Shown here piece by piece: positions 5,072 to 5,921 of a stretch of DNA of 15,304 nt (position 1 is its first letter; every line of letters begins with the position of its first letter). The translations under genes were made by a program, and so were the position numbers. Origin of the DNA: a virus (lineage: Duplodnaviria; Heunggongvirae; Uroviricota; Caudoviricetes); IMG/VR virus record IMGVR_UViG_638341087_000005; one strand, 5' to 3'. The notes under the pieces were generated by a model. The model saw only the letters and a list, made by a program, of their open reading frames with translations, searched no databases and was not told the DNA's origin.

Positions 5072-5107
5072 TCATGACGGAATAAAAATTCTGAATATCT
5101 TCACATT

Positions 5108-5135
5108 TTCACAAACTGACTGTGGTGCTAATAAT
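5108..5135 (+). promoter_or_regulatory. candidate sigma70 promoter on + strand (antisense to tail operon)
   Basis: TTCACA (5108-5113), 16-bp spacer, AATAAT (5130-5135); 5/6 matches to each consensus hexamer. Found by eye only, so the false-positive risk is substantial. Confidence 0.25.
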
Positions 5136-5141
5136 TTCTCT

Positions 5142-5235
5142 GCGTTAATGTTTTTTTTGCCCGAGCACCAGAAACAAAAATAACTCCTTAACGTTAATCT
5201 TTGTCTGTCCCCGCAACTCTGCGGGATTTTTTTAT
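5142..5235 (+). ncRNA. candidate small RNA in the I-J spacer (hypothetical)
   Basis: Bounded by the promoter-like element at 5108-5135 and the + strand intrinsic terminator at 5210-5233. No ORF longer than about 11 codons in the interval. Inferred from signals only. Confidence 0.2.
5210..5233 (+). terminator. rho-independent terminator oriented for + strand transcription
   Basis: Stem CCCGCA (5210-5215) / TGCGGG (5220-5225), loop ACTC, followed by A then T7 (5227-5233) and more T's to 5242. The upstream side on + is not A-rich, so the element is directional for the + strand. It abuts the I stop codon (5241-5243). Confidence 0.55.
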
Positions 5236-5240
5236 TCTTT

Positions 5241-5921
5241 TTACCCCTGCCGCCCGATAACCACGACCTTTCCGCCACCGCCTTCATCACGGGTACTGAT
5301 GTCCTGGGAGATTCGCCGGGAGCCAACCAGCATTTCACCGTAAGGCACCGGCATCGGGTTCCCCTGGGCAATCATGTTATCCAGCGAGGAAAAGTACGTG
5401 TTCTGTCTGCCGTTATCCGTGCTTTTGTACTCCGGTACTTTAGCCTTCGGGGCCAGCATCTGAGCCACACCGCCCAGAATCATGCTGGCTCCAAGTGAAA
5501 ACAGCATCGTGGTGGCAGAAAAACCACCGGCTGCCAGGGCTGAACCCCATAACGCCATTGATGCCCCGGCAGTGAAGAACGACCCCACGATGGCCGCCGC
5601 CCCCAGCACAATCTGCAGTCCACCCTTTCCGGCCCCGGCCAGTCGCGGCACAATGTGGATGACCGTTCCCTCACCCAGCTGTTCGTGAAGACGGGCGTAC
5701 ACCGCCTCCGGTGCCGTGTCNTCACCGCNAATACGTATCTGGTACCAGCCTTCGTTCATCTGACGGCGGAATCCCGGCATCTGCATCGACAGGGCACGGA
5801 TGGCTTCCGCTGCCGTGTTCACATACAGGCTGAGGCGGCGGCCAAATCGTTGTAAATCCCCGTGAAGGCAGATACGTGCCAGTGGCGGTGACGCCAGGCT
5901 GAATGCGTTCGTCGTTGCCAT
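5241..5921 (-). CDS. I: tail tip assembly protein I
   Basis: 226-aa ORF; ...ARICLHGDLQRFGRR... and the Gly/Ala-rich hydrophobic middle followed by LAPKAKVPEYKSTDNGRQNTYFSSLDNMIAQGN match lambda gpI (223 aa). Overlaps the 3' end of K by about 103 bp, as in lambda. Confidence 0.9.
   Translation of the reverse strand: MATTNAFSLASPPLARICLHGDLQRFGRRLSLYVNTAAEAIRALSMQMPGFRRQMNEGWYQIRIXGXDTAPEAVYARLHEQLGEGTVIHIVPRLAGAGKGGLQIVLGAAAIVGSFFTAGASMALWGSALAAGGFSATTMLFSLGASMILGGVAQMLAPKAKVPEYKSTDNGRQNTYFSSLDNMIAQGNPMPVPYGEMLVGSRRISQDISTRDEGGGGKVVVIGRQG

What the first reader, a model, noticed from the sequence alone, without database searches (positions are those of the whole stretch)
5100..5245. Enlarged I-J spacer holds a promoter-like element and a strong terminator on the strand opposite the tail operon: candidate small RNA
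Every coding gene in the window is on the minus strand, yet the I-J spacer (I stop 5241, J GTG 4996) contains a canonical intrinsic terminator oriented for the + strand: stem CCCGCA/TGCGGG, loop ACTC, then a T7 run (5210-5233). About 75 nt upstream on the same strand sits a sigma70-like promoter, TTCACA-16 bp-AATAAT (5108-5135). The spacer is about 244 bp here against about 60 bp in phage lambda (lambda coordinates recalled from memory), so roughly 190 bp has been added. There is no ORF longer than about 11 codons between promoter and terminator. This fits a roughly 90-nt antisense/convergent small RNA. I have a vague recollection that prophage-encoded Hfq-dependent regulatory sRNAs have been reported within tail-gene regions of lambdoid prophages in pathogenic E. 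coli, but I cannot confirm any identity from sequence alone.
Basis: partly seen in the sequence, partly recalled or inferred. Interest (0 to 1): 0.7.

Follow-up and report, generated by a model that had tools for sequence, protein, structure and literature searches.

The report
PasB-family prophage small RNA gene

Summary
The 244-nt I-J spacer (4997-5240) has a + strand promoter (TTCACA-16-AATAAT, 5108-5135) and an intrinsic terminator (5210-5233), opposite the tail operon. Lambda's spacer is 60 nt.

It is not new in kind. The spacer is 86% identical to the I-J spacer of EPEC E2348/69. There the same strand and position encode PasB, an 83-nt Hfq-dependent sRNA confirmed by Northern blot and RIL-seq. 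In O157 Sakai, the Hfq-CRAC peaks EcOnc22/23/24 (about 85 nt, destabilised without hfq) map to the same module in three prophages.

124 related spacers share the promoter, a U-run, and an invariant terminator stem next to the I stop. The body between them falls into at least four classes that are 66-74% identical.

The window allele is 72% identical to mature PasB, with a longest shared word of 16 nt. A published word-size-28 BLAST survey would therefore miss it. It occurs unannotated in 296 of 5,426 complete E. coli genomes, including O157:H7 EC4115 and 86-24.

Most likely it is a lysogen-expressed, Hfq-binding, trans-acting sRNA. Its targets are unknown. Expression of this particular allele was not tested. 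Verdict: a new member of a known kind, of modest interest.

The parts
5108..5135 (+). Sigma70-type promoter: -35 TTCACA (5108-5113; a second TTCACA copy lies at 5100-5105), a 16-nt spacer, and -10 AATAAT (5130-5135).
   Evidence: Scan (10 of 12 matches). Conserved in 124 related spacers, where the -10 is TATAAT in 91, AATAAT in 31 and GATAAT in 2. The Sakai allele with an AATAAT -10 gave a Northern band of about 85 nt.
5142..5233 (+). Predicted primary transcript, 92 nt. The start at G5142, 7 nt after the -10, is inferred. The end is the last T of the T7 run.
   Evidence: Read directly. The fold gives -21 kcal/mol, z = -2.96. The start site is not shown experimentally.
5158..5233 (+). Expected mature sRNA, about 76 nt, inferred from the 83-nt PasB, whose RNA-seq 5' end lies at the end of the U-run.
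   Evidence: PasB coordinates from Table S6 of PMC8550237, mapped onto L001 and aligned to the window: 64 of 89 aligned columns are identical.
5170..5184 (+). Five consecutive A-R-N triplets (AGA AAC AAA AAU AAC), a candidate binding motif for the distal face of Hfq.
   Evidence: Read directly. An A-rich stretch occupies this position in all body classes. The role of ARN motifs comes from established Hfq biology and from Tree et al.. This is inference.
5184..5209 (+). Region predicted to be mostly single-stranded, and so the candidate seed. It contains CUCCUUAAC (5184-5192, an anti-Shine-Dalgarno-like motif) and AAUCUUUGUCUGUC (5196-5209) just before the terminator.
   Evidence: Folds. The segment upstream of the terminator is unpaired in the A and A' class alleles. 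Zhu et al. propose that the PasB seed lies just upstream of the terminator.
5210..5233 (+). Intrinsic terminator and Hfq proximal-face site: stem CCCGCA/TGCGGG, loop ACUC, then U7.
   Evidence: The stem is invariant in 32 unique alleles while the loop ranges from 4 to 16 nt. The window's loop can be derived from the CCCGCAGCUCCGCAACUCUGCGGG allele by an 8-nt deletion between CCGCA repeats.
5037..5070 (-). Sense-strand (tail-operon) hairpin of 10 bp followed by UGUUUUUGUA, just upstream of J. It is a neighbour of the sRNA module, not part of the sRNA.
   Evidence: The fold gives -18.6 kcal/mol, z = -4.47. It contains G.U wobbles that form only on the sense strand, plus one C-G to U-A double change among alleles. 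Lambda has a hairpin at the equivalent position.
5241..5921 (-). Tail assembly gene I. Its stop codon lies 8 nt beyond the end of the sRNA.
   Evidence: Pfam Lambda_tail_I, E = 2e-16.
1604..4996 (-). Tail tip / host-specificity gene J, with a GTG start at 4996.
   Evidence: (six J-specific Pfam domains), and alignment to gpJ of E2348/69 and of lambda.

Best explanation
The roughly 180 nt added to the I-J spacer is a self-contained small-RNA gene (a 'moron') of the PasB / EcOnc22-24 family.

Proposed mechanism. In the lysogen, host sigma70 RNA polymerase starts at the TTCACA-16-AATAAT promoter, near 5142. It transcribes away from J towards I and stops at the hairpin and U7 at 5210-5233. Going by the homologues, the stable species begins after the U-run, near 5158, and is about 76 nt. 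Hfq binds the terminator U-tail and probably also the AGA-AAC-AAA-AAU-AAC stretch. The single-stranded CUCCUUAAC...AAUCUUUGUCUGUC region then pairs in trans with host or prophage mRNAs.

What is shown here: the sequence anatomy, the homology, the position and strand, and the conservation.

What is shown by others, for homologues only: expression, size, Hfq dependence and multiple RNA partners.

What is inferred: expression of this allele, its start site or processing, the Hfq contacts, the seed and the targets.
For: (1) The spacer aligns at 86% identity with the E2348/69 I-J spacer. PasB lies there on the same strand next to the I stop. The published Northern probe is complementary to that terminator.

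(2) PasB has a Northern-confirmed size, Hfq-dependent stability and 37 RIL-seq interactions.

(3) EcOnc22/23/24 (Hfq-CRAC peaks; Northern about 85 nt; destabilised in an hfq deletion) lie in the I-J spacers of Sakai prophages Sp15, Sp14 and Sp11, on the strand opposite the tail genes. The published coordinates are for NC_002695.1 and the loci here are NC_002695.2. The offset between the two is +137 to +146 at the AgvB anchor and 99-227 at the STnc100 anchor. Applying it puts the peaks on the PasB-like body.

(4) 124 related loci keep the promoter, the U-run and the terminator stem while the body varies.

(5) The exact window allele is maintained in 296 of 5,426 complete E. coli genomes.

(6) The window is otherwise poor in promoter-like sites.
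Against: No expression data exist for this allele.

Its -10 is AATAAT rather than the TATAAT of E2348/69.

It is only 72% identical to mature PasB, and its terminator is shortened to 6 bp with a 4-nt loop.

The terminator stem is invariant, so covariation gives no support. RNAalifold finds no conserved fold for the body.

No Rfam family matches.

The predicted start site gives 92 nt, whereas the homologues measure 83-85 nt, so the 5' end is unresolved.

No target or phenotype is known for any member of the family.
Confidence: 0.85

Rival explanations
1. The RNA acts mainly in cis. It is fully complementary to the I-J intercistronic part of the late tail-operon mRNA. Its transcription, or the duplex it forms (for example through RNase III cleavage or polymerase collision), would tune the I/J ratio or J expression during lytic growth. 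Trans pairing would be secondary.
For: The gene always sits in this one spacer, convergent with I, ending 8 nt from the I stop. The family is tied to tail operons in both phages and prophages.
Against: The RNA does not overlap the J ribosome-binding site (about 5000-5010) or the I coding sequence. PasB was abundant, and had 37 partners, in lysogens where the late operon is silent. The body is the most variable part, although a cis-antisense RNA stays complementary to its own locus regardless. Lambda and many lambdoid phages do without the element.
Confidence: 0.1
2. There is no functional RNA. The terminator only blocks antisense transcription from entering I, and the promoter-like site is fortuitous or decayed in this prophage.
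For: The -10 is suboptimal (AATAAT). The terminator loop has suffered a deletion. The tape-measure ORF in the window appears split, so the prophage may be defective.
Against: The promoter hexamers are conserved in 124 loci. The Sakai alleles with an AATAAT -10 are expressed. The same allele is kept at 99% identity or better in dozens of genomes.
Confidence: 0.04
3. The conserved sequence serves the sense strand. It would be an mRNA structure or a short ORF in the late transcript: TAAGGAG, 6 nt, then TTG, encoding 10 codons in the window.
For: The sense strand has a perfect Shine-Dalgarno-like TAAGGAG at 5189-5183 followed by a short ORF.
Against: The short ORF differs in length in E2348/69 and has no start codon in the class B alleles (read). 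The hairpin at 5210-5225 has no U-run on the sense strand. The experimental RNAs are on the opposite strand.
Confidence: 0.02

Closest known systems
PasB (E2348CN_0006) of EPEC O127:H6 E2348/69: Pearl Mizrahi et al. 2021 (PMC8550237); Zhu, Shabalina and Storz 2026 preprint (10.64898/2026.05.13.724894)
   Same: Same locus (the I-J spacer of a lambda-like tail operon), same strand relative to the operon, and same end point next to the I stop. It has the same promoter (TTCACA-16-T/AATAAT), the same U-run, the same terminator stem and U7, and the same pre-terminator UUUGUCUGUCCCCGCA. The whole spacer is 86% identical.
   Different: The mature region is only 72% identical. Relative to PasB, the window allele has 6-7 extra nt near the 5' end, lacks 4 nt (UUCA), and has a terminator loop 9 nt shorter. 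Its -10 is AATAAT, not TATAAT. The two share no 28-nt word, so the preprint's word-size-28 blastn survey would not have recovered it. Expression of this allele is untested.
EcOnc22 / EcOnc23 / EcOnc24 of E. coli O157:H7 Sakai prophages Sp15, Sp14 and Sp11 (Tree et al. 2014, PMC4104026, Table S2)
   Same: An Hfq-bound RNA of about 85 nt, destabilised without hfq, encoded in I-J spacers on the strand opposite the tail genes. It has the same AATAAT -10, the same terminator stem and the shared AAUAACUCC..AACGUUAAUCUU block.
   Different: About 69% identity to the window allele, with a different 5' body and pre-terminator segment (UUCAUCGUUCUCU versus UUUGUCUGUC). Equating EcOnc22-24 with this module rests on a coordinate shift between genome versions that I estimated from Rfam anchors. 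It is not a published statement.
AgvB / AsxR anti-sRNAs (Rfam RF02702, RF02703)
   Same: Prophage-encoded, Hfq-binding short RNAs carried as morons. Each has its own promoter, a conserved 3' part and a variable 5' part with ARN motifs.
   Different: They sit at a different locus, downstream of the late promoter pR' near the stx and lysis genes. They are shorter (51-60 nt). There is no sequence or Rfam match here, while both models do find the true AgvB copies in Sakai.

Membership tests
PasB / EcOnc22-24 sRNA family | Encoded in the spacer between tail genes I and J of a lambda-like prophage, on the strand opposite the tail operon, ending next to the I stop. | tested here: met
   The window RNA ends at 5233 and the I stop is at 5241-5243. 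In E2348/69, PasB ends at 1466261 and I ends at 1466255.
PasB / EcOnc22-24 sRNA family | Sequence homology to the reference RNA. | tested here: met
   86% identity over the spacer. 72-74% over the RNA, 64 of 89 columns for the mature part. Intermediate alleles link the classes.
PasB / EcOnc22-24 sRNA family | Its own sigma70 promoter upstream of the RNA. | tested here: met
   This is a sequence match plus conservation. Promoter activity was not measured.
PasB / EcOnc22-24 sRNA family | A 3' intrinsic terminator with a U-tract of at least 4, the RIL-seq criterion for an sRNA. | tested here: met
   a 6-bp stem followed by U7.
PasB / EcOnc22-24 sRNA family | Expressed as an RNA of about 80-85 nt whose level depends on Hfq. 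| not testable with these tools
   Shown only for E2348/69 and Sakai.
PasB / EcOnc22-24 sRNA family | Forms Hfq-mediated chimeras with multiple mRNAs, i.e. acts in trans. | not testable with these tools
   Shown for PasB only, with 37 interactions.
AgvB/AsxR anti-sRNAs (RF02702/RF02703) | Match to the Rfam covariance model. | tested here: not met
   No hit at the gathering threshold, and none up to E = 10 in 4950-5300.
STnc100 / PasD (RF02076) | Match to the Rfam covariance model at the gathering score (47 bits). | tested here: not met
   A 21.7-bit hit on the - strand at 5038-5119, with 127 model positions deleted. Direct alignment with the true STnc100 copies shows no homology.

The most novel reading that the evidence does not exclude
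The I-J spacer may be a conserved sRNA expression cassette: a fixed promoter, U-run and terminator with an exchangeable seed-bearing body.

At least four body classes, 66-74% identical, plus mosaic alleles circulate among lambdoid prophages. Each prophage may therefore plug a different regulator into the host Hfq network. On this reading the window allele (A') has a target set distinct from that of PasB.

The published view that PasB is the least diverse Pas sRNA would then be an artefact of a word-size-28 BLAST search. The family would be about 3.6 times larger than class A alone: 3,576 versus 999 places in complete E. coli genomes.
Probability: 0.35. Interest if true: 0.5.

Novelty: new member of a known kind. 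Interest (0 to 1): 0.3.

Why it matters
The element shows that a tail-operon spacer is used as a landing pad for a host-directed regulatory RNA. It also ties together two independent experimental datasets (EPEC PasB and EHEC EcOnc22-24) that, in the texts read here, are not linked to each other.

In practical terms, more than 3,500 copies in complete E. coli genomes are unannotated. The window's allele is carried by major STEC lineages: O157:H7 EC4115 and 86-24, O121, and O145:H28.

If the allele classes have different targets, prophage content would change post-transcriptional regulation from strain to strain. No target or phenotype is known for any member, so the biological importance is still open.

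Tried and rejected
Rfam. The gathering-threshold scan of the window found nothing. The E-value scan of 4950-5300 gave only sub-threshold hits. Hrs1 on the - strand is just the terminator read backwards.

STnc100. The hit on the - strand (21.7 bits, E = 0.0086) was followed up. Alignment with genuine Sakai STnc100 copies shows no homology, and no - strand promoter is found. I rejected it as a terminator look-alike.

Alternative promoter. A second promoter with a TAATGT -10 (5146-5151), which would place the start exactly at the PasB 5' end, has only a 2 of 6 match at -35. It was left open, not adopted.

Sense-strand short ORF. TAAGGAG followed by TTG gives 10 codons (23 aa from an upstream TTG). 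It is not conserved in class B, so I rejected it.

Shadow ORFs. 4623-5183 (+) and 5072-5371 (-) have no Pfam match.

GcvB-sponge idea. E2348 PasB contains ACAAAAACAAC, which resembles a GcvB target as recalled from memory. Phrase searches of the RIL-seq tables for gcvB-pasB pairs returned nothing. That result is not conclusive, because the table text is truncated and the phrase search may not match across table columns.

Covariation in the terminator. This is impossible because the stem is invariant. RNAalifold on 32 alleles gave no convincing consensus fold (-2.8 kcal/mol).

Species scan. A gapped pattern run against one genome per species found only E. albertii plus two short contigs that are probably contaminants. 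That collection therefore gave no further diversity.

Full report
**Observation**

The window carries a lambda-like structural operon on the - strand. Pfam identifies the major capsid protein E, tail tube V, tape measure H, then M, L, K, I, J and Lom.

Gene I is 5241-5921. J begins at GTG 4996. Its first codons (MGKGG) align with the annotated gpJ start of E2348/69 and with lambda J. The spacer is therefore 4997-5240, or 244 nt. In lambda the spacer is 60 nt, at 15445-15504.

On the + strand the consensus scan finds TTCACA-16-AATAAT at 5108-5135, matching 10 of 12 positions. It also finds a terminator: CCCGCA-ACTC-TGCGGG at 5210-5225, followed by T7.

Across the whole window only three promoter-like sites exist, fewer than in shuffles (7.3 +/- 2.2). 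Two of the three are this promoter. The ORFs touching the interval are mechanical shadows, and the two longer ones have no Pfam match.

**Identity**

Rfam has no matching family. BLAST showed that the spacer is widespread in Stx phages and in 1,654 of 5,426 complete E. coli genomes, and is never annotated.

The literature search led to the Pas sRNAs of EPEC E2348/69. Table S6 of Pearl Mizrahi et al. 2021 places PasB at NC_011601.1 1466343-1466261 on the minus strand. It is 83 nt, lies in prophage PP6 between two plus-strand genes, and was detected with the Northern probe AATCCCGCAGTGATCGCGGAGCT.

In RefSeq those flanking genes are the tail assembly protein (ending at 1466255) and gpJ (starting at 1466496). 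PasB therefore lies in the I-J spacer, opposite to the tail genes, and ends 6 nt from I.

The probe is complementary to the terminator in that spacer. The window spacer aligns with the E2348/69 spacer at 86% identity over its whole length. The alignment covers the promoter (TTCACA-16-TATAAT in E2348/69), the U-run, the pre-terminator UUUGUCUGUCCCCGCA and the terminator with U7.

PasB has a Northern-confirmed size and Hfq-dependent stability. It is more abundant under the non-activating growth condition, and it has 37 RIL-seq interactions.

**A second experimental sighting**

Table S2 of Tree et al. 2014 lists EcOnc22 (Sp15), EcOnc23 (Sp14) and EcOnc24 (Sp11) as homologous Hfq-CRAC peaks on the + strand. 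EcOnc22 gave a Northern band of about 85 nt and was destabilised in the hfq deletion.

In NC_002695.2 all three coordinates fall inside I-J spacers whose genes are on the - strand. The published coordinates refer to NC_002695.1, so an offset has to be applied.

- The Rfam AgvB hit lies at 1941920-1941981 in version 2, against the EcOnc01a peak at 1941783-1941835. This gives an offset of +137 to +146.
- An STnc100 anchor at 3.49 Mb allows an offset of 99-227.

With that offset the three peaks land on the PasB-like body and terminator of the Sakai spacers (sequence). A 2021 review lists the targets of EcOnc22-24 as unknown. I derived the equivalence here. It should be confirmed by re-mapping the reads.

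**Family anatomy**

A 24-mer from the promoter region recovered 120 IMG/VR loci. Together with the reference loci, 124 modules were extracted, giving 32 unique transcripts.

The following parts are constant:
- the promoter, with a -10 of TATAAT in 91 loci, AATAAT in 31 and GATAAT in 2;
- a leader, GCGUUARUG, followed by a U-run;
- an A-rich stretch followed by a pyrimidine motif (CUCCUUAAC and variants);
- AAUC;
- the terminator stem CCCGCA(G)/(C)UGCGGG with U6-8, abutting the I stop.

The variable parts are the 5' body, the 8-15 nt before the terminator, and the terminator loop (4-16 nt).

Four classes emerge, 66-74% identical to each other. Megablast counts in the 5,426 complete E. coli genomes are:

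| Class | Type | Genomes | Places |
|---|---|---|---|
| A | PasB of E2348/69 | 956 | 999 |
| B | commonest in IMG/VR and Stx phages | 800 | 985 |
| C | Sakai EcOnc22-24 | 542 | 1,246 |
| A' | the window | 296 | 346 |

The A' genomes include O157:H7 EC4115 and 86-24, O121 and O145:H28. Mosaic alleles also exist, such as T14 and T31.

The window's 4-nt loop is explained by an 8-nt deletion between CCGCA repeats in the allele CCCGCAGCUCCGCAACUCUGCGGG. That allele otherwise has nearly the same body (T8).

The window RNA matches mature PasB in 64 of 89 aligned columns (72%), and the longest shared word is 16 nt. The bacterial survey of Zhu et al. used blastn with word size 28 and more than 75% query coverage. 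It would therefore not have recovered classes A', B or C. This probably explains their statement that PasB shows the least sequence diversity.

**Structure**

The 92-nt predicted transcript folds at -21 kcal/mol (z = -2.96). It forms a 5' hairpin in which the U-run and leader pair with the A-rich stretch, then a single-stranded region, then the terminator.

Across alleles only the terminator is common. The terminator stem never varies, so there is no covariation evidence for or against it. RNAalifold gives no meaningful consensus for the body.

The window RNA has five consecutive A-R-N triplets at 5170-5184. Such repeats are the known ligand of the distal face of Hfq, and Tree et al. noted them in AgvB and AsxR. 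Assigning this role here is inference.

**The 5' end**

A start 7 nt after the -10 gives 92 nt in the window and 98 nt in E2348/69. The measured RNAs are 83 nt (PasB) and about 85 nt (EcOnc22), and the RNA-seq 5' end of PasB lies at the end of the U-run.

Either the primary transcript is cut in the AU-rich leader, for example by RNase E, or a weak second promoter fires there. That promoter would have a TAATGT -10 at 5146-5151 and a poor -35. These tools cannot decide between the two.

**Mechanism and rivals**

The best-supported reading is a lysogen-expressed, Hfq-dependent, trans-acting sRNA. Expression, Hfq dependence and multiple partners are shown only for the homologues.

A primary cis-antisense role on the late I-J mRNA cannot be excluded, because the RNA is by construction complementary to it. 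However, the RNA overlaps neither the J ribosome-binding site nor the I coding sequence. The homologues are also abundant when the late operon is silent.

A sense-strand function (a short ORF behind a TAAGGAG) is not conserved across classes. A non-functional relic is unlikely given the conservation and the expressed Sakai alleles with an AATAAT -10.

**The neighbouring sense-strand hairpin**

Between the sRNA promoter and J lies a 10-bp hairpin with a UGUUUUUGUA tail, on the sense strand at 5070-5037 (-18.6 kcal/mol, z = -4.47).

Among alleles, one stem pair changes from C-G to U-A. Two alleles carry G.U wobbles that would be C.A mismatches on the other strand. It is therefore selected as sense-strand RNA.

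Lambda's 60-nt spacer has its own hairpin, CCGCC-UGCG-GGCGG followed by UUUUGUCAUUU, at the equivalent place. The sRNA module was thus inserted between the I stop and a pre-existing intercistronic hairpin. Similar sense-strand terminator-like hairpins follow D, E, J and lom in this window.

**Verdict**

The finding is real and correctly interpreted. It belongs to a described family whose function is still unknown. It is a diverged, unannotated allele, so a new member of a known kind, and of modest interest.

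Noticed in passing
window 5037-5070 (- strand): A conserved sense-strand hairpin with a U-rich tail lies just upstream of J. 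It contains G.U wobbles that form only on the sense strand, and one C-G to U-A double change among alleles. Lambda has a different hairpin at the same position. It may be a terminator that Q-modified polymerase reads through, or an mRNA-stabilising element.
   Followed up: partly
L017 7758-8100 (spacer); hairpin at L017 7962-7994: In the commonest IMG/VR class (class B, more than 60 loci) the I-J spacer is 343 nt. The usual sense hairpin is replaced by a different, bidirectional terminator-like hairpin, CCCCGGTATC-AGCA-GATACCGGGG, with T-runs on both sides, plus about 100 nt of extra sequence next to J.
   Followed up: partly
window 2625-2652 (+), with a terminator-like site at 2834-2852 (+): A second TTCACA-16-AATAAT match, with the same hexamers as the sRNA promoter, lies antisense inside J. 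A weak terminator-like hairpin follows about 180 nt downstream. This is probably chance.
   Followed up: no
window 9437-9781 and 7597-9462 (- strand); N at 9479: The tape-measure (H) reading frame appears split into two ORFs in different frames, close to an ambiguous base (N) at 9479. This is either a sequencing or assembly problem or a defective prophage.
   Followed up: no
window 5145-5216 (- strand): The sense strand of the sRNA body carries a perfect Shine-Dalgarno-like TAAGGAG (5189-5183) followed by TTG and a 10-codon ORF. It is the complement of the conserved CUCCUUA motif of the sRNA. The ORF is not conserved in class B.
   Followed up: partly
window 13531-13551, 14616-14637, 1567-1586, 890-911 (- strand): Strong sense-strand terminator-like hairpins follow E, D, J and lom. 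The late operon is therefore punctuated by intercistronic hairpins.
   Followed up: no
L126 / L128 (NC_002695.2 1941300-1942400 and 3485900-3487100): Coordinates in Tree et al. 2014 (NC_002695.1) are offset from the current RefSeq version by about +137 to +146 nt at 1.94 Mb. Anyone mapping EcOnc sRNAs onto NC_002695.2 must correct for this.
   Followed up: yes
L129 (Parendozoicomonas haliclonae, 460-nt contig) and L131 (Streptomyces flavalbus, 3.4-kb contig): The full promoter-to-terminator pattern occurs on very short contigs in assemblies of unrelated bacteria. E. coli prophage contamination is the most likely cause.
   Followed up: no
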